From the NCBI GenBank assembly GCA_964016885.1, contig OZ024743.1, positions 58,590,001 through 58,654,000 on the forward strand: 64,000 bases of DNA, given 5' to 3'. Positions 1-64,000 of this stretch are shown in pieces (position 1 is the first letter of the stretch; every line of letters begins with the position of its first letter). The stretch comes from Eledone cirrhosa. Taxonomy: Eukaryota. The notes under the pieces were generated by a model that saw nothing but the letters and a program-made list of their open reading frames with translations, searched no databases and was not told where the DNA came from. Both the position numbers and the translations under genes were made by a program.

Positions 1-620
1 GCTGGGAAGGGTGGCCTGCACCCTCCATGCCATGCTTTATGATCTCGTTGTGAGGCATTGCATCGGAAGCTGCCAACACTGTAACGGCATGACAGTGGGT
101 GGGGACCGAAAGGATCGACAGTGGTACTGCAGCGCCATTTGTGAGGCTCACAATCTTGGAAGCCGAGCTGTTCAGTTGATTGCTAGTCGCAAATGATGGA
201 ACTGCATTGAGCCAGTCACCACTGTGGGTTGGGAAGCCGAGCGGAAACATGCCAGACGTTGCAGGTCGAGTCGGCGCACCAACCCATCTGAAATCATGTT
301 GAAATGATTGGCGTCCTATTTTTTTGGGGGGGGGGGGGCATCTACGAGATAAGAGGGGGATGGACGTTCACAGGGTAGAGGCTGAAGTGCTTTCATATTA
401 TGTAAGGCGGTTTGCGCTCCTCGATCACAGAAATTTCAGTTGTGTCGTAAAGAACTCTGTTGATGAGTATATAGAAAGCAAGATGTTACAGACGAAAAGA
501 CACCAGGCATTGTCAGTGAGACAGGAGTCGGGCTATAGTGGCTGCCTTCAAATGAAATCTAGTATTTTTCTCTAAACTGATTCCATTTCCTCCTTATGGA
601 ATATTGCCTCGCAATTATCA
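1..620 (-). mobile_element. Degenerate CRE-clade (RLE-type) non-LTR retrotransposon fragment
   Basis: Minus-strand translation near 1-220 gives SGDWLNAVPS...RCSTTVDPFGPHPLSCRYS and, after a frameshift, NEIIKHGMEGAGHPSQ. This resembles the WL.A.PS, zinc-knuckle and pre-RLE region of CRE-like elements. The right boundary is uncertain. Confidence 0.6.
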
Positions 621-8055: not shown

Positions 8056-8110
<55 letters not shown>

Positions 8111-9641: not shown

Positions 9642-9674
<33 letters not shown>

Positions 9675-23694: not shown

Positions 23695-24547
23695 GTAAGT
23701 CGCACCGAAGGCTGTCAATTATTATTTTCTAATCGTTATTTCTACTCACATCATATTACGAAATGTTATAAATGTATTAAAGGCCCATTACGTCGTAAGA
23801 GAGGTCAGCTTGCAGTGAAAGGCATATATGGATTTCCGGTCGTTGCTCCTGGAAAAAGTGTCACCAATTTTAGTGTGATAGGGAGAAGGTATTGAGCTCA
23901 GAATACACAGAAACGGAAGGGATTCCACAAAGCATCATGCTTGACTCATTTTAACGATTCCCCCTAATACACTACCCACCTAGCGTGGTGCTTTATTTTG
24001 TCAATTCCTAAATAATGAATGGCAAAGTTGGCCTCGGTGGGATTTAATCTCTCATATTAAGGTTTAATGAATATAGTATCTCAGTTATTTTTCTTTTTCT
24101 CATTCAGCAGAATGAAAATGAATTCCTTTTTATTGAATATTAATATTTCAGTTAGTGAATGTTCGGCAAACTATTACACAATTGGGATTCAAACTCTTAA
24201 ATAATAGTTATTTAGTTTACCAATATTTTCTTCCACTTTTATGTATAGAGGAACCACATCAGTAATTGCTTGTCATCTATATAACTGTATATACATGCTA
24301 ACATGATTCACACTCCATCTCTATTCCCCCATCTCTCTCTCTTTCTTTCTCACTCTCTCTCTCTCCTTCTCCTATATATATATTAATCAGAATATAATCA
24401 TGGGTGAAGTGTGATTAAAAAAATATATGACTAATAACTGAAATGAGATTGCATCATTGCTTTTTTTATGATACTGTTTGTTCGTTTTACACATTTCTAG
24501 CTATGTGGTCTCTTACAAATGATGTCTTAAATATCTTTTGTATTCAG

Positions 24548-24890
24548 CCGCTGTTTCCAAACACTGGCCAAACATACGACGGGTCCCATGTCAAGGATGC
24601 AACGAGGAAATTTATTGTTCAGAAAACTGTCGCAAAGAAGCATGGCTAAATTATCACCAAATCCTCTGCCCATCTACAAATACTGAAGCTCACAAATTGT
24701 ACGATATATGTCGTAAAATTAAAGAACTATCCGGTGAAGGTCAAACGATATGGAACGCCAGTTTTAGTCCAATTATGCTGGCCCGTATTTGGGCAGCCAT
24801 CATTTGCCATGCTAAAAAGCTTGCCACCGAAAATGGCTCATCCATACCAACACAGTCCCAGTGGGCGATTGCTAAATCCCCATATAGACG
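24548..24890 (+). CDS. SMYD5-like gene, next exon (second half of MYND)
   Basis: Acceptor tattcag, donor gtacag, phase 1/2; encodes CQGC...YCSENCRKEAW...HQILC. Confidence 0.88.
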
Positions 24891-25169
24891 GTACAGTCAT
24901 TTACTTACACTCTATTCGAATTAATCAATGAAGAATATTGAGAGAATTACTAAAGCTATAAATGATTTGTTTTACTAAGATAGAATTTTATATTTTATAA
25001 CTTAAGTCTGTAATATGAGTTGATTTGTTTTATAAAACCAGAGCTGGTTTTAGCCAGTCTGGTATCAGAATGTTCCTCATGTATTTCTGTTTCCTCAAGA
25101 TTACTTTCATTCAACCCAGTTGATGATGACCATGCATAACCGTAACCAATTAAAATAAAGAATAAGATA

Positions 25170-25460
25170 TATCAATTGAAATACAACACTGGGTATTTGG
25201 AGCCACTGTGTCAATTCTGAAACAAATATCTAAATATTGAAACCGGTGTTTCAATTTTGAACACACTATTTCAATGTGAAACCCACTATTTCAATTTTGA
25301 ATCAACTATTGTAACTTTATCGCCATTATTTTTTATGTTTAGAACCCACTATTTAAATTTTAACGGAATCATTTTAATTTTAAACACATTGTTTAAACTT
25401 TGAAGCAGCCATTTTAATTTTGGACCCATCGCTTCAATTTTAATCAAATATTTAAATTTC
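25170..25460. repeat. Degenerate ~21-bp intronic minisatellite
   Basis: Recurrent tttcaattttgaa(a)cccacta-like units. Confidence 0.7.
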
Positions 25461-25540
25461 CCAAATCGATAATAACGTTTGCATTTGTGAAAATACGTCT
25501 ATTGATAGAAAATAACTTGTGTTTTCCTTGTATTTTCCAG

Positions 25541-26240
25541 ATTTATCGCATATGGAGCTCAGGGTGTAGCAAATAATTATACAGGGATGCATCAAGTTAT
25601 GAAAGATGTATTCAGTGGTGCACCAGAAGGTTTGTGTTACGATATAACAGTACGTGAGTTCGAAGGACGTTACTTACAAATGGCGTGTAATGTGCAATCG
25701 TTTTCTGACGGGAAAAACCCATTGCATTGTTTCTTAAAGGCAATCAGCACGCTATCTCATTTTGCGCAGCTTTCTGATCTTGTCGACGTTGATAACATCC
25801 CAGAAGCCAATTTTGCAGGAGTTTTTCCTGTGCAATCTTGCTTCAATCACAGTTGCGCAAATTCTGTCGAAGTAATGGATGGTTTATCAAATGGACGGCC
25901 TGGAATTCATCTACGAGCACGACTGAATATCAAGGCTGGTGAGGAATTATTTAGCACGTATATCGATACAACAATTCCACGTCGTGAAAGAAGAGCTTGG
26001 CTATTCAGAGGCTACAATTTCTGGTGTCAATGTCTGCGCTGCAAATTTGAAGGAGACGGACCAGAAGCGTGTGCAAATTGTGAAACACAAGCGCCAGAGG
26101 GCAAACAATTTCCAGCCTGTGGAAAATGCCGGAAAGTATGGTACTGTTCACCAAAATGTCAAAAGATTGCCTGGAAGGCTGGACACAAGAAAATTTGCAG
26201 TATGACCCATTCAAAACTTTGCAGTTCTAATCTTTATTAG
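25541..26240 (+). CDS. SMYD5-like gene, last exon (SET-C, post-SET, extra C-terminal MYND)
   Basis: Acceptor tattttccag in phase 2; encodes FNHSC, GEELFSTY, FWCQCLRC, CANC...CGKC...YCSPKCQ...W...HKKIC; TAG stop. Confidence 0.92.
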
Positions 26241-44235: not shown

Positions 44236-45663
44236 TATAATAATAATTATAATAATAATTATTATTATTGTCATTACTATTCTTATTATTATTTCATTTA
44301 TCTTGCTTTATGTTACGAGTTATCACCAAGTCACAACAAGTGACCCCAAGAGACCAAAAGGTGCGCCATGTTAAAAAAAGAACACATGCACACATATGTG
44401 TGTTTAGACTTGTGATGTATATATATATTGACAGAATCTTCCTTAGTATATGGGTAGTTCCCATTAGTACTGTCTTTCCTATTTCTTCTATACGCTGGTT
44501 TCCTGGGATTTGGGATAAGTAATCATTAGACTCCTTAGGTATCCTTCATAGAGCGCCTACAACTACTGGTGTTGTTTTAGTTCTCAAATTCCGCATTTTC
44601 CCAATCTCTATCTTCAGCTCCTTATTCTTGCTCAATTTTTCAAATGTTTTAATCGATACATTCTTGTCTATAGGAGCGGATGTGTCAATTAGCAGGCATA
44701 CCCTCTTTGAAAGTCCTTCAGTATTATATCAGTTCTATTTGCAGCTATTTTTTCTTCTGTTTGGATGCTAAAGTGCCACAAAATTGAAATGTGACTTGTT
44801 TCATGTATGGGAGGTGGTTGATGCTGCGCCTAATTCATTTGAAGGGGCAGGTCAAAATGCTTACACATTACCCAATGTATGTATTTTGCAGCTCTGTCGT
44901 GCCTGTTTAGGTATTCGGCTGGAACTATACGACTGCACCTTGAAATTATATGATCAATGTTCTCTTGCTGTATTTTACATATATAGCATAATGGGTTGCA
45001 TCCATTTTTTATGATGTTGGCTTGATAATTTTTTGTTGGCAGACACTGATCTTGTGCTGATATAATCAGTCCTTCAGTTTTTCGAAAGTAGGTTTATAAT
45101 TATTATTTTTCGTTATACTTTCGTAGCTGTCTCAGCGGCCTAGTTGAAGTAATCGTAGACGGTGGGGAACCTGGTCTAAAGTTCGATCCTGGGCGTGAGT
45201 AGGTTTCCCGGTAAACATTTTCAGTTTTTTTTTATGGGATATTAAATAAAAACTGAAAAAGATTACATGCACCACTTGGAATTGAAACCTAGATCAAGAT
45301 CTACACTGTCTCTAGTACCTACCACTGAGACAGCTACGAAAATATTATGAAAAATCTTACTTATAAACCTACTTCCAAAGTTTTCAATACAAAATGATGT
45401 GGTGTCGTTCATGTCTTTCTTAATGTTATTGGTCCTACATAAGGTTGACTTCTAAATCATTTGGGTGTTCCATAAACTACATCCTCGTTTTCTTTCTCAT
45501 CTATCTAGACTATATTTTAACCTGTAATCCATGATTAATTTCTGTCGCATCTCACGTCTCCACCCTCTCTCTCTGAGATATTTGAATCTACTATGATTTG
45601 GGCTTACCTTATTCATATATATATATGATTTTGCCTTTCTGTTAGATTCAAACTTACAATGAT

Positions 45664-46379
45664 TGGTGCTCTAAAATAGCGATGTATACATGAATGTATG
45701 TATAGTATATTTGGCAATATACCGTATGTTTAATCAAAAAGATTTAGAAGACCATACGCTATCAGTTTTAAAGTAATGACTATGTCACTTCATTTCGGCG
45801 AAAGAAGTAAGAGAAGCTGTCTGTCCGTTTCACGATGGTTGGCCTTCATCAGAGCCACGTACTCCCTGCTTCCGCCAAAATTATAGAAGCTGGATTCTTA
45901 TAGAATTCCAGTAATAATCAGGAGCTGATTATGTGGAGCGATTGCCGGTCCAGCAAAAATTAGGTATTAGGATTGGTGCTTTGAAATAGCGATGTATATA
46001 TGAATGAATGTATCGTATATTTGCCAATATACCATATGTTTAATTAAAAATATTTAGAAGACCATACCCTATCAGTTTTAAAGTAGTGACTGTGTCACTC
46101 ACTTCTTTTCGGCGAAAGAGGGGAGAGAAGCTGACAGTCTGTTTCACGCTGGTTGACGTTTATCAGAGCCACGTACTCCCCTGCTTCCGCCGAAAATTAT
46201 AGGAGGTGGATTCTTATAGAATTCCAGTAATAATCAGGAGCTAATTATAAAGAGCGATTGCCGGTCCAGCAAAAATTAGATATCAGGATTGGTGCTCTGG
46301 AATAGCGAGGTATACATGAATATATCTATGGTATATTTGGCAATATACCATCTGTTTAATTAAAAACATTTAGAAGACC
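45664..46379 (-). mobile_element. Retrozyme-like tandem array: 2.3 copies of a ~310-bp HHR-bearing unit with a 13-bp TSD
   Basis: Units start at 45661, 45971 and 46287; AACTTACAATGAT occurs at 45651-45663 and 46380-46392. Confidence 0.8.
46106..46196 (-). ncRNA. Extended type I hammerhead ribozyme (unit 2); paralogue at 45816-45855 in unit 1
   Basis: Reverse complement: ggggag-tacgtg-gct-CTGATAA-acgt caacca gcgt-GAAA-cagactg-TC-agc-ttct-ctcccc. Unit 1 has CTGATGA. Confidence 0.75.
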
Positions 46380-46398
46380 AACTTACAATGATCGGCAT

Positions 46399-46638
<240 letters not shown>

Positions 46639-47320
46639 CAAAAGATGAGTTACAAGCCGTTCAAACATATATATATATTATGTGTTTGTTGAAATAATCA
46701 AATTAAATTAATTCAACAGTTATACTCACATAGGAATAATGAGGTTGTCACCCAGAAGATTGACAAGTCGCCCATAAATATGACTAATAGCATTAAGAAT
46801 GCCATGAACGACACCACATATTTTAAAGTTTGATTTTGAAAGTAGGTTTATAATTAATAATTTTCATTATGCTTCGTAGCTCTCTCGGCGGCCTAGTTGG
46901 AGCAATCATGGATGGTGGTGATCCTGGTCTGAAGTTCGATCCTGGTTGGAAGTATGGTTCCCGGTAAACCTTTTCAGTCCAGAGGGTGCCAACCACTGAT
47001 GGGTGTCAACATAGGATCGGTAGCTTTTACAGGGTATTTTCTTGTCATTTCTTAGGCAGTTTCCTTCTTTACTGCTACTTTTACCTGCTTTGCTTTTTCT
47101 GTGTTTTTCATTTCACCAGTAAGGGAAACTTCTAAAATGTGTAGTTCATTACTGTATCCATTTGCATCGTTTATAACGGAGTATGACCTTGTGTTGCTTT
47201 CATGTTTCAAAACGAGTTTGATCTTTCAATCATGTGCTTCCCTTACATATGTAGATAATCCAATTGTTGCAGTTTTCAAAGAAATATCTAACTGGATTAA
47301 TCCACGTTCTCCTACTTTCC

Positions 47321-47409
<89 letters not shown>

Positions 47410-47616
47410 GGCGACCTACGTAGTAAATCGTATCATCGTGAGCTCCGCAAAGGTTTGTTATTTCCGTTTGTTAAAAATTGTCATTTATGGAAAATTTTAT
47501 TGTTAACTGTTTATAAGCGCACATACATTGTTTTCAGAAAAGGACACCCAAAAAGATTGGGGCCTTGTGCCCAAAATTTAAACTTTTATTATTATCAAAA
47601 AATTTCTTTGAAAAAA

Positions 47617-49608
47617 ATGGCTAATTCACCTCTGCACGAAGCAGCTGAAAGCCTTCCTCACAAATTAACACCTCACACCGACACCACCATTGTAAATGTT
47701 ACTACGTATGCCAACACAAAAAAAAATATAAGCACTAGCAATATTTTAAATTTGTCTCAGGCAGACATTCATTTCCCGCCATTACCAATAACTGCAGGTG
47801 TTAAAGCCTCCACCACCACCACCACCGCGACAACCACCACCACCACCACCACCACCGCGACAACAGAAACAAAAGAAGAAAAAAATAAATTAACTCGTGA
47901 TATCGAAATGAAATCAAGCAAAATGGACTCTTCCCCAACAAAGACGACTGACGTCACCACCACCACAACTGAAACTAAAATTAATATTAACGATAGCAAC
48001 AACAACAACAATGACATTATAATCCCCCCCCTCAGTTTCGCCAGAGTAGCAAAACAGTTCGAAGCATTTATGGTAACTCAGGAGGATTTAGAAAATGCCA
48101 AACAAATGGTAAAGAAAGATGGGTACAGGGTCAGCCTCACCCCCCACCTAATAAAATGGAGCATCGGCGCCTTTTGCACCGTGTCGTATAGAACAATAAA
48201 TGTAAAATCGCGCCGAGTGGAACGGGCATCCGAGTCCCAAATCCAAAAAGCTTTGGGACATGTGTGGGAAAGAAAAACCCACATCAGACGTGGGCAAAAG
48301 TATGGAACCGTGGACGTGTTCTTGAAACACCAGAGGAGGCTAGAGAACACTCCATGGCCCCATTAAGAAGTGACGACTTCACACTCGTCCCAAGCTATTG
48401 TGGCCAGAGACTCGTAAAGATCAGGGTGACCCAAGTTCCACCGGCCATCGAAATTCCCTAGCTAATAGCAGCCGTCCTCGCCGGCATCGAAGCCAACACA
48501 AAAATAATAGCAATGGCAAAAGAAAAGCAGGAGAACTGGTCCGGATCTGGGATGGAGCTCCTGATCCAAGCGGAACAAAAAAGCATTGAGGAGATCCCAG
48601 AGGTAATAGACCTCACTGACGGCAGCCACCTCACGGTAATTGTCGAGGGCAGAAGACCTAGGTGTGTCGTTTGTGGTGAAGGAACCCACCTAAGGGCTTT
48701 CTGCCCTCAGGCTAAAAGGTTGAGGCCACCTCTCCTACCCACCCAGTGACACAACCATCAACACCACCAGTAGCAGAGATGGCAGAAACAACTGTAGCAG
48801 CAACAACAGAAGCAACTATAACAGCAACAACCCCAGCAACAGTAGCAAAACCAACACCATCACCACCACCAGCAAAGCCAACACCACCACCACCCAACGC
48901 TTCAGAACTAGCACCAGCGCCTACACCATCCACCACGCCACAACCAAAACTAACGCCTGTGGAGGATTTTCCACTCCCCGGCCTATCACAACTGGAGACA
49001 GATTGTGACGACGAGGAGTGGGAAACGATATCCGGAAAAAAAAAAGAAACCAAAAAAGAAAAAAATTCTCTTCCTTCCCCCTCCCAAAACAAAATACAGA
49101 GGGAAACAAATAAACTAAGAAACAAAAAAGTTAGGACAGATATGCCACCATCCACACCAGCATCACCAACCCCATCAACCCAAACACCAACACCATCACC
49201 ATCATTAACTCCAACACCACCATCACCTACACCACAAAAGTCACCAAAATGCGAAACAGAAACAAACCCACAACAAACTCAAACAAAACAAAACAAAACA
49301 ACCAAAACGATACACACTACACAGCATTAAATTTGAACAACAAGCAATTATTACACTACATCCAACACAACACCAGCATCACAGAAAAAGACTACACAAC
49401 AACCCCAAAATTCACACCACCTCCACACATACAAATCACTCGCATCACACAGAAAACGTACGTGACACTAAAACAAAAATTCCCCAAAGACATCGAAGAC
49501 TTCCGACAAGCACTCTCCAGGAGGATTTATAAGGACATCCTTCCTGAGGAGGCCACAAGCAGTGAAAAGGATGGAAAAACCGTCCTTCCCCTACGAGAAG
49601 TAAGGTAA
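47617..49608 (+). pseudogene. ORF1 (CCHC knuckle CVVCGEGTHLRAFC, Pro/Thr-rich tail), disrupted
   Basis: Frameshifts and a TAG relative to copy 2. Confidence 0.85.
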
Positions 49609-49642
49609 GTGGTCTTTCCCATCTTTTCCACTCCTTTTCAAC

Positions 49643-52600
49643 ATGACCTCACTCAGAATAGGCAGCATAAATGCGCGTGGCTTGTCTCGTCATGGAAGCA
49701 GGGCCACCTGCTCAACGCTCTCAGGTCACTAAACATAGATGTAGTGGCCATCAGCGAGACCAGAATCTCCGAAGCACAGGCTTTCGCACCGATCTTCGGC
49801 GGCTACGATGTGTACGCATCTCCCAGCCGTCCGGGATCGGGGGGAGGAGTTGCTGTGCTTTTTCGGAGAGGTTTGGATCTTGCCATACGGGCCATCTTCC
49901 TGGACCCAGAAGGTAAATTGGTGGTGCTGGACGTGACCAGCGGAGACGAGCAAGCTTTCAGGTTAGTGGCCGTCTATGCCCCGACAGGAGCAGGGCGGCC
50001 TGATTTCTTCCGGCGTCTGGAGACCTTTCTTGGAACGTCCCGCTCTTTAGTGTTAGTGGGCGACTGGAACGGGATCTTAGATGCACGCTGGGATTGTGTG
50101 GGATTAGTGGATAGGGAAGGAGGGTGCAAGAGTCTCACCAACCTGCTCAGACATTTTGAACTGTCTGACAGGTACCGAATGGATTTCCCGAATGTACCAA
50201 TGTGGACTTGGACAAATCGCATAGGGTCAACCAGATCATATCTAGATAGAGTATTTTGTAGGGAAATAGATAGGTCTAGCATAGGCTGTCCACAATTCAA
50301 GATAGTCAGCTACACGGACCACAAATTCGTGATCTGTGCTTGACTTAGATAGGCTCCATAGGCGAGGACCCGGCTACTGGAAGCTAAACGCGTCCTTACC
50401 AGCGCGCAAGGCCTACAGAGACTGGATTAGCGAACTTGTTAAGCGTGCGTTGACGGGGGCCATCGTCAACAACAAGTGGTAGTTTGCTCTGAAAAGAGCA
50501 ATTAGAATAGAGTCCATTAGGTTTAGTAAGAGTTTAGCAATAGAGAAAAATAGAGCAGAGGGAGAACTAGTTAGAAAACTAGATGAGGCGCTTAGCAAAG
50601 GCATCGCGACCGACGTACTTGCGGCGAAATTGGCCCTTGACCAATTCTTCAATGCAAAGCACGAAGGCTGCATTGTCAGAGCTAGGGTGCGTGCTCTCAG
50701 ACACGAGGGGACGAAAGCCGTTCAATGGGCCCGAGTGGCGGAGGCGCGTCGTGGCAACAAAGCCACGATCCGGTCTTTGGTGGACCACGACGGACGCATG
50801 CTACTCGATCCCGGGCAAATGTGTGAAGCTTTTCAGCGACACTTCGCTCAACTGTTCGGGGGCAGTGGCGAGCCGGATCGAGGGATGGTCTTTAGTGTCT
50901 ACCTCGATTGACTGCCGCGGCTTTCGGCCACTGAGGCGGAGTGTTGCGAAAAGCCGATAACAACCGCTGAAGTACGGGATGCAATGACTAGTTGCACAAG
51001 GGGTAAATCGCCTGGTTTGGATGGTCTGCCCTATGAACTTTACATAAAAATGCCAAACTTGTTCGGAGGCCTCTTGGCGGACGTCTACTGCAACTGGCAA
51101 CAGAACGGGAGAATTCCCAGCTCTGTGAGCCGAGGAGCGGTGGCGCTGCTGAGAAAGGATCCGAACAAGGGGGATAACATAGATAATTTTAGGCCCATAA
51201 CTCTGCTAAACACAGAGTTCAAGATTTTGGCCAAGGTGCTAGCAAAGAGGTTGGCGCTTGTCGTTGGTGGTCTGGTGGGAGAGGCACAGACATGCACCAT
51301 TCCCGACAGATCCATCCACGACAACCTCCACCTCATGCGATACATTGTAGAGAGGGTAGCTAGGGAACCTGGCACGGGTGGGTCTTTAATCAATTTAGAT
51401 CAGTCGAAAGCCTTCGATAGGGTCGACCATCGTTACCTAGAGGCAGTCCTGAGGGCGGCTGGCATTGGGCCCGTCTTCAGAGGCTGGATCGCTGCCATGC
51501 ACAGCAACATCTGCTCTGTAGTGAGAGTGAACGGTCACCTTTCGGAACCGTTCAACATCATGCGCTCGGTCCGCCAAGGATGTACCCTCTCGTCACTATT
51601 GTACGTATTGACTCTAGAGCCATTACTGCACAAACTTGAGACGTTGAGGGGGATCCCGCGCGAACTAGGATGCGGAAGATCCGTGTCAGCATATGCCGAC
51701 GATGTCACCGTAGTGGTATCGAACGCCAAACACATCGAGGCGATCGGCACTACACTAAGAGAATACGAAGCGGTGACAGGAGCAATGATCAACCAGGAAA
51801 AGTCAGTGGGCCTGCAGCTCGGCACCTGGAGAGGCAGGTCCATGCCGTCCAACAGCGTCGTCGGGCGCTGGACAGACGGACCGGTTAAATTGCTAGGGGT
51901 CTGGTTCGGTCCAGTCCTCCAGACGGACAAAAACTGGGACGAGGTGACGAGCAGGGTGGCTTCTCTCACCCAGAAATGGGCCGAGAGGAAGCTATCCCTG
52001 AAAGGTCGAGCGGAGGTGGCTAACGCGTACATCGCGTCCGTCATCTACTACCGCCTGACCGTCGTACCTTGTCCTAAGCCCCGCCTGACTGCGCTGGAGC
52101 GTTTGCTCTTTCGCTTCTTGTGGAAGGGACGCGCTCCGATGGTCAGGCGGTCCATCTGCTGTCAACACCCGCTACGTGGAGGGCTGGGCATGCCGTGGCT
52201 GATGATGCGCAGACACGCGTTCAGGCTACGACATCTCCACCTCTTCCTCGACGGTGATCAGGTGTGGTCGCCGTTTGCTAGACACGTTTTTTCCCAGCTC
52301 GTTTCCTTGACGGAGCTGCAGTCCTGGGTCAAGCGAAGACCGAGAGGGAGCGCTTGGAGACTGGAATGTCTTCAGGCGCTCACAGCCCTCGACCAATCGG
52401 GCAATGTGATCGGTGGAAACTCCACCTTGGCGTTCTATAGGGGATTAGTGGAGGGGAAGAGCGACGACGTACTTGGAGAAACTCTAGCCGTCGACGAAAA
52501 TCAACTAGCCAATCTCTTCGGAAGGACTTTCGGGCCGGGGCCTATGGACAACTTACAGAAATCCCTGGCCTGGCAGTGCTACCGGGGTGCTTTGCCAGTT

Positions 52601-53040
52601 CGGGATAAACTTTACAGGCATGGAGGTGCCGTCAGCCGGGCATGTCCGAGATGCGCACAGGGCGACGAAACCGTCCTGCACGCACTCGTCCAGTGTCCGA
52701 GCATTGCTGACCTGTGGGTTTAAGTCGAACACCTGCTGTCACGTGTAGGACGGATCCAGCTATCAGCTGAGTCCATCGTGAGGATTGCCCCGCCCTCTTC
52801 CTTTAGACGGGAAGGGCAGGCAGTTTTTATCTGTCTGGTGCCCACGGCGAAAGAGATAGTATGGTGGACACGTTTGAAAGGGCTCTACGGTGATGCCCTG
52901 ATTAACTTTTTCAAATTCTACTGAAAAGGAAAATCAGGGTAGAGAGGGAAATGCTCTCTTCCCAGCATTTTGTTGAAAGATGGGTGAGAGAAGCAAGTAT
53001 GGCCCGAATGAATGGGCCTTCACTGAGTATGTGTCTGTAA
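49643..53040 (+). pseudogene. ORF2 (APE endonuclease, reverse transcriptase), disrupted
   Basis: SET, VYAP, GDWN, LDR, TDH, GYWKLN, KSPGLDG, RPITLLN, KAFDRV, RQG, YADD, CPRC; several stops and frameshifts. Confidence 0.92.
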
Positions 53041-53313
53041 ATTAAAGGTGGAAAACTGGGAGAGGGCACTTGCCCTGGTGGTCAGGGCCACTGTGGTCTT
53101 TTAATGGGGTTTCTCCACAAATGTCCCTCGGAAGTCTCCCCCCTATTGGGGAATTTTTCTTTGTTATTTTATTTCATCCTCTGTTTTTTTACACGCAGAA
53201 ATGCCCATTTGTACCGTTCTGTATTGTCCTGTACTCTCCTTAATGTGTACTTCATGTAAACCCTTGTGGTTAATAAAGAAAACATTATTATTATTATTAT
53301 TTTTATTATTATT

Positions 53314-56300
53314 GGCGACCTACGTAGTAAATCGTATCATCGTGAGCTCCGCAAAGGTTTGTTATTTCCGTTTGTTAAAAATTGTCATTTATGGAAAATT
53401 TTATTGTTAACTGTTTATAAGCGCACATACATTGTTTTCCGAAAAGGACACCCAAAAAGATTGGGGCCTTGTGCCCAAAATTTAAACTTTTATTATTCTC
53501 AAAAAATTTCTTTGAAAAAAATGGCTAATTCACCTCTGCAACAAGCAGCTGAAAGCCTTCCTCACAAATTAACACCTCACACCGACACCACCATTGTAAA
53601 TGTTACTACGTTTGCCAACACAAAAAAAAATATAAGCACTAGCAATATTTTAAATTTGTCTCAGGCAGACATTCATTTCCCGCCATTACCAATGACTGCA
53701 GGTGTTAAAGCCTCCATCACCACCACCACCGCGACAACCACCACCCCCACCACAACCGCGACAACAGAAACAAAAGAAGAAAAAAATAAATTAACTCGTG
53801 ATGTCGAAATGAAATCAAGCAAAATGGACTCTTCCCTACCAAAGACGACTGACGTCACCACCACCACAACTGAAACTAAAATTAATATTAACACAAATAA
53901 CGATAGCAACAACAATGACATTATAAAACCGACCCTCAGTTTCGCCAGAGTAGCAAAACAGTTCGAAGCATTTACGGTAACTCAGGAGGATTTAGAAAAT
54001 GCCAAACAAATGGTAAAGAAAGATGGGTACAGGGTCAGCCTCACCCCCCCACCTAATAAAATGGAGCATCGGCGTCTATGCACCGTGTCGTATCGAACAA
54101 TAAATGTAAAATCGAACCGAGTGGAACGGGCATCCGAGTCCCAAATCCAAAAAGCTTTGGGACATGTGTGGGAAAGAAAAACCCACATCAGACGTGGGCA
54201 AAAGTATGGAACCGTGGACGTGTTCTTTGAAACACCAGAGGAGGCTAGAGAACACTGCATGGCCCCATTAAGAAGTGACGACTTCACACTCGTCCCAAGC
54301 TATTGTGGCCAGAGACTCGTAAAGATCAGGGTGACCCACGTTCCACCGGCCATCGAAATTCCCTGGCTAATAGCGGCCGTCCTCGCTGGCATCGAAGCCA
54401 ACACGAAAATAATAGCAATAGCAAAAGAAAAGCAGGAGAACTGGTACGGATCTGGGATGGAGCTCCTGATCCAAGCGGACCAAAAAAGCATTGAGGAGAT
54501 CCCAGAGGTAATAGACCTCACTGACGGCAGCCACCTCACGGTAATTGTCGAGGGCAGAAGACCTAGATGTGTCGTTTGTGCTGAAGGAACCCACCTAAGG
54601 GCTTTCTGCCCTCAGGCTAAAAGGTTGAGGCCACCTCTCCTACCCACCCCAGTGACACAACCATCAACACCACCAGTAGCAGAGATGGCAGCAACAACTG
54701 TAGCAGCAACAACAGAAGCAACTATAACAGCAACAACCCCAGCAACAGTAGCAAAACCAGCACCACCACCACCACCACCAGCAAAGCCAACACCACCACC
54801 ACCCAACGCTTCAGAACTAGCACCAGTGCCTACACCATCCACCACGCCACAACCAAAACAAACGGCTGTGGAGAATTTTCCACTCCCCGGCCTATCACAA
54901 CTGGAGACAGATTGTGACGACGAGGAGTGGGAAACGATATCCGGAAAAAAAAAAGAAACCAAAAAAGAAAAAATTCTCTTCCTTCCCCCTCCAAAAACAA
55001 AATATAGAGGGAAACAAATAAACTAAGAAACAAAAAAGTTAGGACAGATATGCCACCATCCACACCAGCATCACCAACCCCATCAACCCAAACACCAACA
55101 CCATCACCATCATTAACCCCAACACCACCATCACCTACACCACAAAAGTCACCAAAATGCGAAACAGAAACAAACCCACAACAAACGCAAACAAAACAAA
55201 ACAACCAAAGCGATACACACTACACAGCATTAAATTTGAACAACAAGCAATTATTACACTACATCCAACACAACACCAGCATCACAGAAAAAGACTACAC
55301 AACAACCCCAAAATTCACACCACCTCCACACATACAAATCACTCGCATCACACAGAAAACGTACATGACACTAAAACAAAAATTCCCCAAAGACATCGGA
55401 GACTTCCGACAAGCACTCTCCAGGAGGATTTATAAGGACATCCTTCCTGAGGAGGCCACAAGCAGTGAAAAGGATGGAAAAACCGCCCTTCCCCTACGAG
55501 AAGTAAGGTAAGTGGTCTTTCCCATCTTTTCCACTCCTTTTCAACATGACCTCACTCAGAATAGGCAGCTTAAATGCGCGTGGCTTGTGGTCGTCATGGA
55601 AGCAGGGCCACCTGCTCAACGACCTCAGGTCACTAAACATAGATGTAGTGGCCATCAGCGAGACCAGAATCTCCGAAGCACAGGCTTTCGCACCGATCTT
55701 CGGCGGCTACGATGTGTACGCATCTCCCAGCCGTCCGGGATCGGGGGGAGGAGTTGCTGTGCTTTTTCGGAGAAGGTTTGGATCTTGCCATACGGGCCAT
55801 CTTCCTGGACCCAGAAGGTAAGTTGGTGGTGCTGGACGTGACCAGCGGAGACGGGCAAGATTTCAGGTTAGTGGCCGTGATGCCCCGACAGGGGCAGGGC
55901 GGCCTGATTTCTTCCAGCGTCTGGAGACCTTTCTTGGAACGTCCCGCGCTTTAGTGTTAGTGGGCGACTGGAACGGGATCTTAGATGCACGCTGGGATTG
56001 TGTGGGATTAGTGGATAGGGAAGGAGGGTGCAAGAGTCTCACCAACCTGCTCAGACGTTTTGAACTGTCTGACAGGTACCGAATGGATTTCCCGAATGTA
56101 CCAATGTGGACTTGGACAAATCGCATAGGGTCATCCAGATCATATCTAGATAGAGTATTTTGTAGGGAAATACATAGGTCTAGCATAGGCTGTCCACAAT
56201 TCAAGATAGTCAGCTACACGGACCACAAATTCGTGATCTGTGTGCTTGACCAATCGGGCAATGTGATCGGTGGAAACTCCACCTTGGCGTTCTATAGGGG

Positions 56301-57111: not shown

Positions 57112-59263
57112 TCCTTGAGTCTCAGTCATTGATGTTAGTTAACTGGAAAGTTTGTTGGAATGAATATCAAGCCACTACCTGCAGCCTCAGATATTCAGGA
57201 CGTATCGGAGTGTTCTTGCTGTTCCACAGTCTCCTCTCTCTCTCCACAGATCCTGCACAGTGGGCTAGCCTCCTCCTTGTAAATATGGTGTTTCAACCAC
57301 TTCGTTTGGAGGGCCTGCTCCTGCGCAGCCATTAACATTCCTTCTGTAGCCTTTTTAAGGTCACCTCTTCTCAACCAGTTCCATGTCTTTGGATCTTTAA
57401 ATTCAGTTTTCTCAAAGAAGGTACTATGAAGGGATTTTTCCTGCTCTTTCTCCTTGATGTTATTTCCTCCTTGGACATCCCCTGGCCTATTGTCCCCTTC
57501 TTCAGTACAGTTCTGAGCATTGGCTCCTTACTATCAGTCACGTATTTGTGTAGGTTGTTTTTCTCCATCTGAACACAGTCCTCTATGCTGATAATACCTC
57601 TTCCACCCTCAGCTCTCCTTAAGTAGAGTCTATCGACATCACTCCTCTTATGGAACATGTTGTAGATAGTCAATAGCTTCCTAGTCTTCCTATCCATTTC
57701 TTTTTGTTCAGCAACATTCCATCTCAGAATTCCCGCACTGTACCTAATAATAGACACAGCTAGGGAATTTACTGCGCTTATGGCATTTCTGCTGTTCAGA
57801 TATGACTTCAATACGCTCCTTACTCTCCGAATGTATTCAGTTCTTAACAATTCCTTCACTTTTTTGTTCTTTATGCCATCAGCCTCCAGAACGCCCAAAT
57901 ACTTGTATCCTTCCTCAGAGTCAATTTCCTTTATCATCTCACCTGTTGGTATCTGGATTCCGTTACTTCTGCTCAACCTACCCCTCCTCATCACAATGAC
58001 TCCACACTTACTAATACCAAATTGCATACATATATCACTGCTGAAAATACGGACAGTGTCAACAAGCACATCCAACTCCTTCTCTCTCTTCCCGAAGAGC
58101 TTAAGATCGTCCATGAAGAGGAGGTGATTGATGGGAAGCCCTCCCTTTCCCAACCTGTATCCTGCTCTCACTTTTCGCAGTACACTGGTCAGGGGCATCT
58201 GGGCAAGGACAAACAACAGATGGGACAGGCTATCTCCCTGGAAGATACTTCTCTTGATCTTCACGCTTCCCAAGGATTCTCCAGTTGATGTCACCTCTGT
58301 TTCCCAGGACCTCATACTTTTGCCCAACAACTATCTGATGTTATCTGCCACCTTGAAGATCTCCAGGCTTTTGGTGATCCAAGAATGAGGCACCATGTCA
58401 AATGCCTTTCTGTAGTCTATCCATCCCATGGCAAGATCAGTGTGTCTCCTCCTGCAATTCCCCATTACCATCTTATCAATAAGTAACTGGTCCTTTGTAC
58501 CTCGTGACTTCTTTCGGCATCCTTTCTGTTCGTCCGGTAACAAGTTGTTTGTGTGGAGGTGATGGTAGATTTCCTCAGACACAATGCTCGTCAACAGTTT
58601 CCACATTACGGACATACATGTGATAGGTCTATAGTTGGTAACATCATTACCCTTGATTCGGTCTTTCATTATCAGAACTGTGGTACCTTTTGTCAACCAC
58701 TCTGGTTCTTCACCTGACATCAAGCAGTTATTGAACATGGTTGACAGTTTCGGGTGGAGGGATGTTACATTTTTAATCCAATACCCCTGCACACCATCTG
58801 GGTCTGGTGATTTCCAGTTGTTTAGTTTTTTGGCCTGCCGCTTAAGAGTTTCAACTGTGATACTCAAATCAGTTTGTTGGTGTGCCTGCTCACCGATCTC
58901 CCTCTGTACTGTCTCAATCCACCCTGCCTGGACATTATGTCTAACATCCTGCTCCCATATTCCTCTCCAGAATGTTTTAGTTTGCTCCGCCCCAGGGATC
59001 AAGTCGTTGCCTCTTTCTTTCCCCTCAAGCTGTCCAAACAGCATCTTCTGGTTGTTGTCGAACATGCGGTTCTGTTTATACTGACTGACTCTGTTCTCGT
59101 ATTGCCTGATTTTGGCACTCTTTGCTACAATGCGTTGCTTCAGTTCCTCTATGGTAATATTTAGCTTTTTCCTCCTAGTTTTGTACTTTATTTCCAGTCT
59201 ATTTTTAGTGTCTATGTTTTTTAGTGTCCCATTCAGTAGGGACTCAAGCTTTCCAATGTATCA
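57112..59263 (-). mobile_element. R4/Dong LINE, copy A (5'-truncated, RLE domain deleted)
   Basis: YRPITC, EQKGC, DYRKAFD, IFQGDSLS, FMDDLKL, GGRG; a ~480-bp deletion near 57222. Confidence 0.9.
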
Positions 59264-59306
59264 AATAATAATAATAATAATAATAATAATAATTATTATT
59301 ATTATT

Positions 59307-61938
59307 CCTTGAATCTCAGTCATTGATGTTGGTTAACTGGAAAGTCCGTTGGAATGAATATCAAGCCACTACCTGCAGCCTCAGATATTCAGAACGTATC
59401 GGAGGGTTGTTGCTGTTCCCAGCAAGCATGCCTTTTGTAGCGTTCCAAAAAGCGTGAAGGGGCCGATTTTCTTTAACCATCCCTGGAAACTTTTGGAGAT
59501 AGTCTCCAGTGCGCCTATGACAATCGGGATCACTTTGACTTCATGGCATTTCCAAATCCTTTTTACCTCCCACTTTAAGTCCTGGTATCGGTTAATTTTC
59601 TCCATCTCCTTCTCTTGCACTCTCGTGTCGAATGGGCAAGCCACATCCACAATCAGACACGATCTTTTTTCTTTGTCCACAACCGCCAGGTCGGGTCTAT
59701 TGTGTTCCAGTTTCTTGTCCGTCTGTATCCTAAAATCCCACAGCACCTTCACCTGATCGTTCTCCATCACCGCCTCTGGCCTATGCTCATACCATTTCTC
59801 AGAATGTGGTAAATTGTTTACTTTGCACAGGTGCCAGTGGATCACCTTGCCCATATAGTGGCTCTGAGCTAGGTGTTTACACTCGGATACAATGTGAGCC
59901 ACAGTCTCCTCTCTCTCTCCACAGATCCTGCACAGTGGGCTAACCTCCTCCTTGTAAATATGGTGTTTCAACCACTTCGTTTGGAGGTCCTGCTCCTGCG
60001 CAGCCATGAACGTTCCTTCTGTAGCCTTTTTAAGGTCACCTCTTCTCAACCAGTTCCATGTCTTTGGATCTTTAAATTCAGTTTTCTCAAAGAAGGTACT
60101 ATGAAGGGATTTTTCCTGCTCTTTCTCCTTGATGTTATTTCCTCCTTGGACATCCCCTGGCCTATTGTCCCCTTCTTCAGTACAGTTCTGAGCATTGGCT
60201 CCTTACTATCAGTCACGTATTTGTGTAGGTTGTTTTTCTCCATCTGAACACAGTCCTCTATGCTGATAATACCTCTTCCACCCTCAGCTCTCCTTAAGTA
60301 GAGTCTATCGACATCACTCCTCTTATGGAACATGTTGTAGATAGTCAATAGCTTCCTAGTCTTCCTATCCATTTCTTTTTGTTCAGCAACATTCCATCTC
60401 AGAATTCCCGCACTGTACCTAATAATAGACACAGCTAGGGAATTTACTGCGCTTATGGCATTTCTGCTGTTCAGATATGACTTCAATACGCTTTTTACTC
60501 TCCGAATGTATTCAGTTCTTAACAATTCCTTCACTTTTTTGTTCTTTATGCCATCAGCCTCCAGAACGCCCAAATACTTGTATCCTTCCTCAGAGTCAAT
60601 TTCCTTTATCATCTCACCTGTTGGTATCTGGATTCCGTTACTTCTGCTCAACCTACCCCTCCTCATCACAATGACTCCACACTTACTAATACCAAATTGC
60701 ATACATATATCACTGCTGAAAATACGGACAGTGTCAACAAGCACATCCAACTCCTTCTCACTCTTCCCGAAGAGCTTAAGATCGTCCATGAAGAGGAGGT
60801 GATTGATGGGAAGCCCTCCCTTTCCCAACCTGTATCCTGCTCTCACTTTTCGCAGTACACTGGTCAGGGGCATCTGGGCAAGGACAAACAACAGATGGGA
60901 CAGGCTATCTCCCTGGAAGATACTTCTCTTGATCTTCACGCTTCCCAAGGATTCTCCAGTTGATGTCACCTCTGTTTCCCAGGACCTCATACTTTTGCCC
61001 AACAACTATCTGATGTTATCTGCCACCTTGAAGATCTCCAGGCTTTTGGTGATCCAAGAATGAGGCACCATGTCAAATGACTTTCTGTAGTCTATCCATC
61101 CCATGGCAAGATCAGTGTGTCTCCTCCTGCAATTCCCCATTACCATCTTATCAATAAGTAACTGGTCCTTTGTACCTCGTGACTTCTTTCGGCATCCTTT
61201 CTGTTCGTCCGGTAACAAGTTGTTTGTGTGGAGGTGATGGTAGATTTCCTCAGACACAATGCTCGTCAACAGTTTCCACATTACGGACATACATGTGATA
61301 GGTCTATAGTTGGTAACATCATTACCCTTGATTCGGTCTTTCATTATCAGAACTGTGGTACCTTTTGTCAACCACTCTGGTTCTTCACCTGACATCAAGC
61401 AGTTATTGAACATGGTTGACAGTTTCGGGTGGAGGGATGTTAAATTTTTAATCCAATACCCCTGCACACCATCTGGGTCTGGTGATTTCCAGTTGTTTAG
61501 TTTTTTGGCCTGCCGCTTAAGAGTTTCAACTGTGATACTCAAATCAGTTTGTTGGTGTGCCTGCTCACCGATCTCCCTCTGTACTGTGTCAATCCACCCT
61601 GCCTGGACATTATGTCTAACATCCTGCTCCCATATTCCTCTCCAGAATGTTTTAGTTTGCTCCGCCCCAGGGATCAAGTCGTTGCCTCTTTCTTTCCCCT
61701 CAAGCTGTCCAAACAGCATCTTCTGGTTGTTGTCGAACATGCGGTTCTGTTTATACTGACTGACTCTGTTCTCGTATTGCCTGATTTTGGCACTCTTTGC
61801 TACAATGCGTTGCTTCAGTTCCTCTATGGTAATATTTAGCTTTTTCCTCCTAGTTTTGTACTTTATTTCCAGTCTATTTTTAGTGTCTATGTTTTTTAGT
61901 GTCCCATTCAGTAGGGACTCAAGCTTTCCAATGTATCA
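59307..61938 (-). mobile_element. R4/Dong LINE, copy B (5'-truncated)
   Basis: RT, CRIC..H...C knuckle and RPD...D...EK RLE; shares its truncation point and stop with copy A. Confidence 0.92.
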
Positions 61939-62001
<63 letters not shown>

Positions 62002-62017
62002 TATTATTATTATTATT

Positions 62018-64000
62018 CCTTGAATCTCAGTCATTGATGTTGGTTAACTGGAAAGTCCGTTGGAATGAATATCAAGCCACTACCTGCAGCCTCAGATATT
62101 CAGAACGTATCGGAGGGTTCTTGCTGTTCCCAGCAAGCATGCCTTTTGAAGCGTTCCAAAAAGCATGAAGGTGCCGATTTTCTTTAACCATCCCTGGAAA
62201 CTTTTGGAGATAGTCCCCAGTGCGCCTATGACAATCGGGATCACTTTGACTTCATGGCATTTCCAAATCATTTTTACCTCCCACTTTAAGTCCTGGTATC
62301 GGTTAATTTTCTCCCTCTCCTTCTCTTGCACTCTCGTGTCGAATGGGCAAGCCACATCCACAATCAGACACGATCTTTTTTCTTTGTCCACAACCACCAG
62401 GTCAGGTCTATTGTGTTCCAGTTTCTTGTCCGTCTGTATCCTAAAATCCCACAGCACCTTCACCTGATCGTTCTCCATCACCGCCTCTGGCCTATGCTCA
62501 TACCATTTCTCAGAATGTGGTAAATTGTTTACTTTGCACAGGTGCCAGTGGATCACCCTGCCCATCACATCATGTCTCCAGTCCTTATAGTGGGTCTGGG
62601 CTAGGTGTTTACACTCGGATACAATGTGAGCCACAGTCTCCTCTCTCTCTCCATAGATCCTGCACAGTGGGCTAGCCTCCTCCTTGTAAATATGGTGTTT
62701 CAACCACTTCGTTTTGAGGGCCTGCTCCTGCGCAGCCATTAACATTCCTTCTGTAGCCTTTTTAAGGTCTCCTCTTCTCAACCAGTTCCATGTCTGTGGA
62801 TCTCTAAATTCAATTTTCTCAAAGAAGGTACTATGAAGGGATTTTCCCTGAAGGCTGCTCTTTCTCCTTGATGTTATTTCCTCCTTGGACATCCCCTGGC
62901 CTATTGTCCCCTCCTTCAGTACAGTTCTGAGCATTGGCTCCTTACTATCAGTCACGTATTTGTATAGGTTGTTTTTCTCCATCTGAACACAGTCCTCTAT
63001 GCTGATGAGACCTTTTCCAGCCTCAGATCTCCTTAGGTAGAGTCTATCGACATCACTCCTCTTGTGGAACATTTTGTAGATAGTCAATAGCTTCCTAGTC
63101 TTCCTATCCATTTCTTTTTGTTCAGCAACATTCCATGTCAGAATTCCCGCACTGTACCTAATAATGGACACAGCTCGGGAATTTACTGCGCTTATGGCAT
63201 TTCTGCTGATCAGATGTGACTTCAATACGCTCCTTATTCTCCGAATGTATTCAGTTCTTAACAATTCCTTCATTTTTTTGTTCTTTATGCCATCAGCCTC
63301 AAGAACGCCCAAACACTTGTATCCTTCCTCAGAGTCAATTTCCTTTATCATCTCACCTGTTGGTATCTGGATTCCGTTACTTCTGCTCAACCTACCCCTT
63401 CTCATCACAATGACTCCACACTTACTAATACCAAACTGCATATATATATCACTGCTGAAAAAACGGACAGTGTCAACAAGCACATCCAACTCCTTCTCAC
63501 TCTTCCCGAAGAGCTTAAGATCGTCTATGAAGAGGAGGTGATTGATGGGAAGCTCTCCATTTCCCAACTTGTATCCTGCTCTCACTTTTCGCAGCATAAT
63601 GGTCAAGGGCATCAGGGCAAGGACAAACAACAGAGGGGACAGGCTATATCCCTGGAAGATACCTCTCTTGATCTTCACGCTTCCCCAGGATTCTCCAGTT
63701 CATGTCAACTCTGTCTCCCAGGACCCCATACTCCTGCCCAGCAACTGTCTGATGTTATCTGCCACCTTGAAGATCTCCAGGCTTTTGGTGATCCAAGAAT
63801 GAGGCACCATGTCAAATGCCTTTCTGTAGTCTATCCATCCCATGGCAAGATCAGTGTGTCTCCTCCTGCAATTCCCCATTACCATCTTATCAATAAGTAA
63901 CTGGTCCTTTGTACCTCGTGACTTCTTTCGGCATCCTTTCTGTTCGTCCGGTAACAAGTTGTTTGTGAGGAGGTGATGGTAGATTTCCTCAGACACAATG
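62018..64000 (-). mobile_element. R4/Dong LINE, copy C (runs off the window)
   Basis: 528-aa ORF 62092-63678 with RT C-terminus and RLE (RPDLVVVDKEKRSCLIVDVACPFD...EKINRY). Confidence 0.92.

What the first reader, a model, noticed from the sequence alone, without database searches (positions are those of the whole stretch)
45651..46392. Retrozyme-like multimer: 2.3 x ~310-bp hammerhead repeat with a 13-bp TSD
Seen: head-to-tail units at 45661, 45971 and 46287, bounded by AACTTACAATGAT. Each full unit has a minus-strand type I HHR. In unit 2, stem I extends through an internal loop (tacgtg/ttct) into a long helix (ttttcggcgaaagaggggag / ctcccctgcttccgccgaaaa on the + strand). The two copies have different lesions: unit 1 lost the cleavage-triplet U and has a disrupted stem II, and unit 2 has G8A, so the consensus is a canonical HHR. 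Established: newt satellite 2, Schistosoma SMalpha and other animal non-LTR retrozymes are 150-400-bp tandem HHR repeats that make circular RNAs. Inference: a non-integer multimer with a TSD reflects rolling reverse transcription of a circular RNA. This may be an undescribed cephalopod retrozyme family.
Basis: partly seen in the sequence, partly recalled or inferred. Interest (0 to 1): 0.85.

Follow-up and report, generated by a model that had tools for sequence, protein, structure and literature searches.

The report
Fossil hammerhead retrozyme with Penelope footprint
This is one old, mutated copy of a 316-base non-coding jumping repeat that carries a hammerhead self-cutting RNA motif and is scattered in thousands of pieces through the genome; the kind is known from other animals, and its fixed ends, TA-repeat targets and back-to-back arms suggest that a Penelope-type transposon enzyme likely pasted it in, while cutting and RNA circles remain untested.

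Summary
Observation confirmed: 2.3 head-to-tail units (45661-46380), each full unit with a damaged minus-strand type I hammerhead; the family consensus is canonical. The family is dispersed (3,861 exact motif hits, control 0), non-coding and old (5.6% from consensus). Two corrections. (1) The 13-bp TSD is the remnant of an 18-27-bp duplication. Two paralogues and 10 of 11 empty sites show insertion at a (TA)n edge and a later 21-bp deletion in this copy. (2) Ends are not freely permuted. 3' ends sit at two sites about 30 nt apart, 141 and about 170 nt past the cleavage site (56 of 63). 5' ends scatter, and 29 of 63 have an inverted second arm. This is the Penelope-like (PLE) insertion footprint, also seen in this genome's RT + GIY-YIG elements. 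Two sister families keep the end region by sequence and the ribozyme hairpin by compensatory pairing. Arms read through the cut site and do not stop there, which fits a circle or an uncut multimer. No partner PLE was found, no RNA data were available and the taxon is unverified. Verdict: a new, probably dead member of the animal non-LTR retrozymes. This scan has noted the same footprint in other families, including in this genome.

The parts
45651..45663 (+). Left copy of the target-site duplication, shortened by a 21-bp deletion that fused it to the element's end (its last 3 bases double as the element's first 3)
   Evidence: paralogues L062 and L063 keep the missing 21 bases
45661..45970 (-). 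Unit 1 (first pass of reverse transcription); left end is the RNA-sense 3' end near site 2; 5.2% from family consensus; 4-nt deletion at the base of the long helix
45813..45858 (-). Hammerhead of unit 1: core intact, U16.1 to A at 45820, stems II and III broken; predicted dead
45971..46286 (-). Unit 2, full 316-nt unit; 6.3% from consensus
45961..45971 (-). Site 2 (+162 to +172 nt after the cleavage site): one of two places where family copies end at their 3' side
45985..46000 (-). Site 1 (about +141): the other 3' end site, a TA-like stretch; the 30 nt between sites 1 and 2 is the optional tail
45923..46072 (-). Region +61 to +210 around both end sites, 73-80% identical to sister family B against 50-65% elsewhere; likely the element recognised by the helper enzyme (inferred)
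   Evidence: alignment with families B and C
46127..46172 (-). Hammerhead of unit 2: stems intact, G8A at 46161 with C3 kept, predicted cleavage after 46133; predicted dead
46106..46196 (-). Long helix extending stem I through an internal loop (arms 46106-46125 and 46176-46196); 13-16 bp with different sequence in families A, B and C
46287..46380 (-). Partial unit 3 (+69 to +162): the 5'-truncated end of the insertion
46380..46407 (+). Right copy of the target-site duplication: 18-19 unique bases plus the first bases of the TA run
46399..46636 (.). (TA)119 microsatellite whose edge was the insertion target
45080..45660 (+). Host repeat (palindromic, 1,912 first-look candidates) that carries the TA tract; gives the empty-site sequence

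Best explanation
This is an old, mutated genomic copy of a dispersed 316-nt non-coding hammerhead repeat (an animal non-LTR retrozyme) that was likely inserted by the endonuclease and reverse transcriptase of a Penelope-like element, probably copying 2.3 times round a small RNA circle. Shown: thousands of dispersed pieces; no coding frame; canonical hammerhead consensus on a long conserved helix; 3' ends at two sites about 30 nt apart; scattered 5' ends; (TA)n targets; head-to-head second arms in nearly half of the insertions; read-through of the cleavage site; for this copy, insertion at a TA edge with an 18-27-bp duplication, later local duplication of the region and a 21-bp deletion. Inferred: tandem copies are transcribed, self-cleave to monomers and are ligated to circles (as reported for coral, mussel and axolotl retrozymes); a GIY-YIG endonuclease nicks (TA)n; the nicked DNA end pairs by about 3 bases with the RNA and primes reverse transcription inside the unit at site 1 or site 2; synthesis runs towards the RNA 5' side, across the ribozyme junction, and stops at random; where both nicked strands prime, two tail-out arms result. 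In this copy only one strand primed (site 2), and the staggered second nick gave the TSD. Both ribozymes here are predicted to be dead.
For: Dispersal: 3,214 and 4,624 first-look candidates; 986 and 3,861 exact motif hits against 1 and 0 in reversed controls. Ends: 56 of 63 arms end in +122..150 or +160..178, windows covering 15% of the unit, while only 9 of 63 5' ends do; 50 of 63 have a TA run at the 3' end; 29 of 63 have a head-to-head inverted arm, and 14 of those 29 pairs use one site each; 28 of 30 in a second sample anchored elsewhere. PMC8557442 (passages) lists 5' truncation, partial tandems, an adjacent inverted 5'-truncated copy, a 30-40-bp optional tail and (TA)n bias as PLE features; PMC11167929 (parts 1-2 of 4) shows internal initiation at two sites that define the tail, on AT-rich DNA. 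This genome has RT + C-terminal GIY-YIG elements (6 of 8 long ORFs hit both Pfam domains) in 7 clusters, 6 with a hammerhead-like motif upstream of a (TA)n terminus and several with two alternative termini. Function of the fold: sisters B (19,077 hits) and C (703 hits) keep stems I and II and a 13-16-bp helix with changed sequence; C has U3-A8 in 17 of 20 loci; consensus circle folds at z -8.3. Template: 14 of 30 arms cross the cleavage site and 0 of 30 stop within 6 nt of it; rare variants shared by successive passes 69 observed, 8.1 expected; young family B arrays are 100% identical inside an insertion.
Against: No autonomous PLE with a homologous terminus was found: none of 50 GIY-YIG loci carries the unit as its terminal repeat, alignments to six PLE 3' regions score 29-52 against 168-319 between sister families, and the best ones are TA-run matches below the shuffle maximum. 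The window arm itself shares 0 rare variants between passes, and its passes already differed at about 14 sites plus a 4-nt deletion before the region was duplicated; age can explain this but it gives no support for one circular template. Family A arms are short: 29 of 63 exceed one unit, 1 of 63 exceeds two. In PMC11167929 ribozyme cleavage was not needed for insertion in vitro and unprocessed RNA was the main substrate. End positions are blurred by several bases because alignments run into TA repeats. No expression, cleavage or circle data exist for this family.
Confidence: 0.65

Rival explanations
1. Same element and same Penelope-type enzyme, but the template was an uncut linear multimeric transcript from a tandem source locus; the 2.3 units are simply 5' truncation, and no circle is involved in insertion.
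For: [quoted passage not shown] The window's passes share no rare variant and differed before duplication. Only 1 of 63 arms exceeds two units. Read-through of the cleavage site is expected here too.
Against: Across 44 multimeric arms rare variants recur in successive passes 69 times against 8.1 expected, and family B arrays are identical within an insertion but differ between insertions (0.90-0.99 to L181), which is simplest with one monomer copied repeatedly; a homogenised source array could also give this. Conserved, covarying ribozymes imply selection on cleavage.
Confidence: 0.24
2. The units are broken-off terminal repeats (pseudo-LTRs) of an autonomous PLE that was not sampled, not an independently moving element.
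For: The ends match PLE ends in every structural respect; bioRxiv 10.64898/2026.07.22.740005 finds Xenopus retrozymes homologous to PLE pLTRs.
Against: In sampled copies the sequence upstream of the ribozyme is the next unit, not an ORF or a shared 3' UTR; the only PLE protein match in 66 unbiased loci is a separate element; the best-supported loose ends in DNA contigs that can be placed are family or sister-family sequence or TA, and none reads as a coding junction, though 410-449 rows were not shown.
Confidence: 0.05
3. A SINE-like repeat moved by a LINE, with twin-priming inversions, or a DNA-level minisatellite whose hammerhead is incidental.
For: LINEs also give 5' truncation, inversions and TSDs (own knowledge); LINE reverse transcriptase is present in the window; this copy has a TSD.
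Against: Both arms of inverted pairs end at internal 3' sites of the same unit rather than one arm starting at an internal breakpoint; no poly(A) or simple-repeat tail belongs to the unit; TSDs are rare; the ribozyme fold is conserved by compensatory change across three families.
Confidence: 0.06

Closest known systems
Metazoan non-LTR retrozymes of coral, mussel and axolotl (Cervera and de la Pena 2020, PMC7229834; passages plus sections 14 and 17 read)
   Same: Non-coding tandem unit within the 170-400-nt range, one type I hammerhead per unit, short near-palindromic stem III, low GC, strongly self-paired predicted circle, sister families in one genome, TSD when present longer than 4 bp, co-existence with PLEs.
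   Different: Expression, cleavage and circles are shown there and untested here. The parts I read do not describe fixed two-site 3' ends, (TA)n targeting or inverted arms. Sequence is unrelated as far as tested (no direct comparison was possible).
Retrozymes as non-autonomous PLE derivatives (Li, Clavereau and Pollet 2026, bioRxiv 10.64898/2026.07.22.740005; main text parts 1-3 of 5 read, supplements not seen)
   Same: Same conclusion that PLE machinery moves retrozymes; monomers, dimers and multimers; similar unit sizes.
   Different: Their evidence is co-occurrence and pLTR homology in 35 species with no mollusc; here the evidence is insertion anatomy, and no pLTR homology was found.
EN+ Penelope-like elements, Neptune/Hydra/Naiad type (Craig et al. 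2021, PMC8557442, passages; Cervera and de la Pena 2014, PMC4209133, passages) and anole Poseidon PAc (Frangieh et al. 2024, PMC11167929, parts 1-2 of 4)
   Same: 5' truncation, partial tandems, adjacent inverted arm, optional 30-40-nt tail between two internal initiation sites downstream of a hammerhead, (TA)n or AT-rich targets, U3-A8 core variant in a sister family.
   Different: No ORF; the whole 316-nt unit is the repeat; the hammerhead is the extended form on a 13-16-bp helix rather than the minimal PLE motif.
Non-autonomous Chlamys elements such as MRC1 (passage in PMC8557442)
   Same: Non-coding PLE dependants with pLTRs and multicopy head-to-tail insertions.
   Different: [quoted passage not shown]

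Membership tests
Metazoan non-LTR retrozyme | Short (about 170-400 nt) unit in tandem copies | tested here: met
   316-nt unit, 2.3 copies; 29 of 63 sampled arms exceed one unit
Metazoan non-LTR retrozyme | One type I hammerhead per unit | tested here: met
   Core intact in 67 of 97 segments, core plus stems in 54 of 97 (best-scoring copies); Rfam HH9 E 1.4e-4, below gathering; both window copies carry lesions
Metazoan non-LTR retrozyme | No protein coding | tested here: met
   Longest stop-free stretch 39 aa sense, 52 aa antisense on the doubled consensus
Metazoan non-LTR retrozyme | Dispersed mobile copies | tested here: met
   986 and 3,861 exact motif hits, controls 1 and 0
Metazoan non-LTR retrozyme | Strongly self-paired predicted circle | tested here: met
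   -97.6 kcal/mol, 66% paired, z -8.3 sense, -5.4 antisense, 60 shuffles
Metazoan non-LTR retrozyme | Self-cleavage of the RNA | not testable with these tools
   Needs in vitro transcription
Metazoan non-LTR retrozyme | Accumulation of linear and circular monomer RNA in vivo | tested here: inconclusive
   No RNA holder listed
PLE-mobilised non-autonomous element | Fixed 3' ends at two sites with an optional 30-40-nt tail | tested here: met
   56 of 63; 28 of 30
PLE-mobilised non-autonomous element | 5' truncation, partial tandems, adjacent inverted arm | tested here: met
   Scattered 5' ends, 29 of 63 inverted; 65 of 141 two-armed; the window copy itself is one-armed
PLE-mobilised non-autonomous element | (TA)n or AT-rich target | tested here: met
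   50 of 63; 10 of 11 empty sites for this insertion run into TA
PLE-mobilised non-autonomous element | Sequence homology to the terminus of an autonomous PLE | tested here: inconclusive
   None in 50 GIY-YIG loci of 10,596 candidates, six family termini and the window's own PLE-like element; sampling is small
Autonomous PLE | ORF with RT and GIY-YIG endonuclease | tested here: not met
   No ORF in the unit or attached to sampled copies
Plant LTR retrozyme | Type III hammerhead in LTRs, PBS, PPT, 4-bp TSD | tested here: not met
   Type I topology, no LTR pair, TSD 18-27 bp

The most novel reading that the evidence does not exclude
Families A, B and C are successive waves of one viroid-like RNA lineage with no pLTR ancestor left in the genome. 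The lineage keeps a roughly 150-nt cis-element that recruits a PLE protein in trans and fixes two priming sites, one for each nicked DNA strand, while freely rewriting its ribozyme hairpin by compensatory change (including C3-G8 to U3-A8). The genome would then record rolling reverse transcription of an RNA circle from both sides of a (TA)n break and identify the minimal RNA handle for PLE-driven, microsatellite-targeted insertion.
Probability: 0.4. Interest if true: 0.72.

Novelty: new member of a known kind. Interest (0 to 1): 0.47.

Why it matters
Which enzyme moves animal retrozymes, and whether the circle is the template, is proposed but not shown in the papers read (PMC7229834 names PLEs as a strong candidate; PMC7761336 says the repeats show no motif pointing to a helper; the 2026 preprint rests on co-occurrence and pLTR homology). 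This family gives a structural footprint that points to PLEs. Comparing three sister families also marks a short conserved region and two priming sites that can be tested directly in the published in vitro PLE assay. The copy in the window is itself a probably dead fossil, useful mainly because paralogues and empty sites let its insertion be reconstructed base by base.

Tried and rejected
Rfam on the window region: no hammerhead at E<=1. Search for RNA runs: no RNA holder listed; X4 is of unknown kind, and laying X1-X4 contigs gave no information on expression, starts or circles. Search for a partner PLE: unit against 50 GIY-YIG loci (L032 holds an independent insertion in the TA run ending a PLE), against six family termini and the window's PLE-like element, and loose ends in DNA contigs: nothing. 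A similarity of stem II between family A and PLE cluster 4, and between family C and clusters 0/1, was noticed by eye and not supported by alignment scores. The 3.7-kb spacing at C1:211.83 Mb looked like pLTR-ORF-pLTR but held no PLE protein. Taxon: the SET/MYND exon search gave 13 homologues and no organism names. DNA search with family B returned 0 candidates because its words are too common; replaced by a pattern count. Lower core than flank divergence (4.5% against 8.2%) was not used, since subfamily differences inflate the flank figure. Covariation counting on MAFFT alignments A4 and A6 was dropped because family B is out of register there; pairs were tabulated by motif anchoring instead. 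Within-array identities for L181, L203, L210 and L137 are artefacts of a truncated first window and were not used. The idea that the recurrent 4-nt deletion proves a heteromeric template was rejected: it lies in a 4-bp direct repeat and appears in single passes of several unrelated insertions. A cofold of two ribozymes gave only -2 kcal/mol beyond two monomers and not the dimeric hammerhead fold, so dimer dependence is open. Literature searches 'hammerhead ribozyme + octopus', 'retrozyme + cephalopod' and 'non-LTR retrozymes + inverted + target site duplication' listed no paper on such a family; the library lacks most subscription papers, and supplements of PMC7229834 and the preprint were not seen and may list related repeats.

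Full report
1. The observation. The window holds 2.3 head-to-tail copies of a 316-bp unit at 45661-46380, 88% alike, bounded by the 13-mer at 45651-45663 and 46380-46392. On the minus strand each full unit has a type I hammerhead. Unit 2 has G8A (46161) with stems intact and predicted cleavage after 46133; unit 1 has U16.1 to A (45820) and broken stems II and III. The hairpin that extends stem I folds at z -6.3. Rfam sees neither damaged copy but matches an intact sister to Hammerhead_HH9 at E 1.4e-4, below the curated cut-off. All coordinates below are nt after the cleavage site on the ribozyme strand.

2. It is a dispersed, old family (family A). The unit has 3,214 first-look candidates, of which 40 were scored, at 90-92% identity on many contigs. 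Exact 16- and 18-letter motifs occur 986 and 3,861 times, against 1 and 0 for reversed controls. 172 sampled segments lie 5.6% from their consensus; the window's units lie 5.2-7.4%. Among 97 ribozyme segments from the 58 best-scoring loci, 67 keep the core and 54 keep core and stems; two subfamilies differ at position 17 (C or U) and the first pair of stem II. The consensus has no reading frame over 52 codons and folds as a circle at z -8.3.

3. The ends are those of Penelope-like elements. For a sample not chosen by score I took 70 of the first 100 listed motif hits on contig C1, dropped 4 overlapping loci and 3 with no arm passing the filter, leaving 63. In 56 of 63 the 3' end lies at +122..150 (33, mostly +141) or +160..178 (23); these windows, set from the earlier score-ranked sample, cover 15% of the unit. 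Only 9 of 63 5' ends fall there. 50 of 63 have a TA run at the 3' end, 29 of 63 have a head-to-head inverted arm, and 14 of these 29 pairs use one site each. That sample is biased to arms that reach the ribozyme, so I drew 30 more hits anchored at +101..118 (some overlap each other or earlier loci): 28 of 30 end at the two sites, 14 cross the cleavage site and 0 stop within 6 nt of it. A cut linear monomer is therefore not the usual template. PMC8557442 (passages) gives 5' truncation, partial tandems, an adjacent inverted copy, a 30-40-bp optional tail and (TA)n bias as PLE features. PMC11167929 (parts 1-2 of 4) shows in vitro that an anole PLE nicks and extends both strands of AT-rich DNA and starts reverse transcription internally at two sites that define the tail.

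4. The genome has suitable helpers, but none was matched. GIY-YIG has 10,596 first-look candidates. Six of 8 long ORFs tested hit both RVT_1 and GIY-YIG; the L091 protein has a CxxxxCxxC linker before the nuclease, which PMC8557442 ties to Neptune/Nematis-type elements and to microsatellite bias. The loci fall in 7 clusters; 6 show a hammerhead-like motif upstream of a (TA)n terminus, several with two alternative termini. No terminus is homologous to the unit. Copies of family A sit tail-to-tail with PLE ends in the same TA run in L032 and L128, which shows a shared target and not descent.

5. History of this copy. The same insertion, with the same 5' end, is in two local duplicates, L062 and L063. 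They keep 21 bases missing from the window's left junction, and with them the family's usual site-2 end and a longer left copy of the duplication. The flank is a repeat family; 10 of 11 empty homologues read the duplicated 18 bases directly into (TA)n. So the element primed in the first bases of the TA run, with about 3 bases of complementarity, and the second nick lay 18-27 bp away. The 13-bp TSD is a remnant. Such TSDs are rare in the family: 5 of 141 loci score, 3 being this insertion, one (L002) showing an imperfect duplication of at least 34 bp and one doubtful; control 3 of 701. The unit 1 lesions are shared by all three paralogues, G8A is private to the window, and the paralogues' second ribozymes are damaged otherwise. 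All three copies are predicted dead.

6. Sister families. Flanks of sampled loci revealed family B (310 nt, 19,077 motif hits, arrays 100% identical inside an insertion, minus-then-plus two-armed layout) and family C (about 320 nt, 703 hits). They align with A along the whole unit. A and B are 73-80% alike at +61..+210, around both end sites, and 50-65% elsewhere. Stems I and II and a 13-16-bp helix 14-17 nt before the core persist with changed sequence; 17 of 20 family C loci have U3-A8, a covariation already reported in PLE hammerheads (PMC4209133, passages). Family C ends at the equivalent two sites in most of 13 loci, and the three B copies read end there too. This is good comparative evidence that both the ribozyme fold and the end region were under selection.

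7. Circle or uncut multimer. For a circle: rare variants recur in successive passes 69 times against 8.1 expected in 44 arms, 14 arms with two or more, and B arrays are internally identical. Against or neutral: a homogenised source array or later tandem duplication gives the same; the window arm shares none; its passes differed at about 14 sites before duplication, which its age can explain; only 1 of 63 arms exceeds two units; and cleavage was dispensable in the anole assay. I put PLE mobilisation at about 0.9 and, given that, the circle at about 0.7. No RNA run holds the sequence, which is no evidence either way.

8. Comparison and novelty. It meets every genomic criterion for animal non-LTR retrozymes (PMC7229834, passages and sections 14 and 17); cleavage and circles are untested. 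A PLE link is proposed there and in PMC7761336 (passages) and argued from pLTR homology in bioRxiv 10.64898/2026.07.22.740005 (parts 1-3 of 5). In what I read, none describes the two-site ends and inverted arms for retrozymes, and searches for cephalopod retrozymes listed no such paper; supplements were not seen. The taxon is unverified. Newt satellite 2 is mentioned in PMC7229834; SMalpha is recalled and not checked. Earlier notes of this scan describe the same footprint for a young 310-nt family and a U3-A8 sister pair in this genome and for families in other genomes; my reading was recorded before I saw them, a sequence look-up of this unit found nothing, and they are unchecked notes, not support. 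Verdict: a new member of a known kind; the copy is an ordinary fossil, and the family comparison gives a testable handle on how retrozymes are inserted. Interest 0.47.

Noticed in passing
window 45080-45660 and 46834-46978; L265-L275: The host is a palindromic repeat of at least 700 bp (long inverted arms, a tRNA-promoter-like box near 45182 by eye) with an internal (TA)n tract; 1,912 first-look candidates. Type not determined.
   Followed up: partly
G000:C4 58.82, 58.97 and 59.21 Mb (L063, L062; third hit not fetched): The region around the insertion is locally duplicated at about 90% identity; inside the window two near-identical ORFs at 47056-48366 and 53260-55026 also point to tandem duplication.
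   Followed up: partly
window 8000-15950, minus strand: A PLE-like element by eye (RT-like and GIY-YIG-like frames at 12032-14442, repeated flanks, ends in (TA)24) with hammerhead-like motifs at about 9019 and 8329; Pfam gave no hit for the two frames. No homology to the unit.
   Followed up: partly
L114/L181, L137, L158, L184-L213: Family B: young 310-nt sister retrozyme, 19,077 motif hits, long two-armed arrays with identical units; best material for RNA tests.
   Followed up: partly
L147, L214-L233: Family C: about 320-nt sister with U3-A8 core in 17 of 20 loci and a perfect palindromic stem III of 5-6 bp.
   Followed up: partly
L031-L060, L091-L110: At least six families of RT + GIY-YIG elements with minimal hammerhead-like motifs, many U3-A8 with a palindromic stem III, one with GCAA in place of GAAA; L091 has 99%-identical terminal repeats and a 938-codon open frame.
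   Followed up: partly
window 23295-26240, plus strand: Exons of a SET + MYND (SMYD-type) host gene.
   Followed up: partly
window 49600-52720 plus and 57371-63699 minus: Two kinds of LINE-like retrotransposon; the first hits RVT_1 and zf-RVT, the second is present in about three tandem pieces and was not tested.
   Followed up: no
unit position +29..32 (window unit 1; L030, L067, L070, L074, L083): A 4-nt deletion in a direct repeat at the base of the long helix recurs in single passes of unrelated insertions (7% of segments), and DNA contigs show many deletions across the hairpin; possibly reverse-transcriptase slippage.
   Followed up: partly
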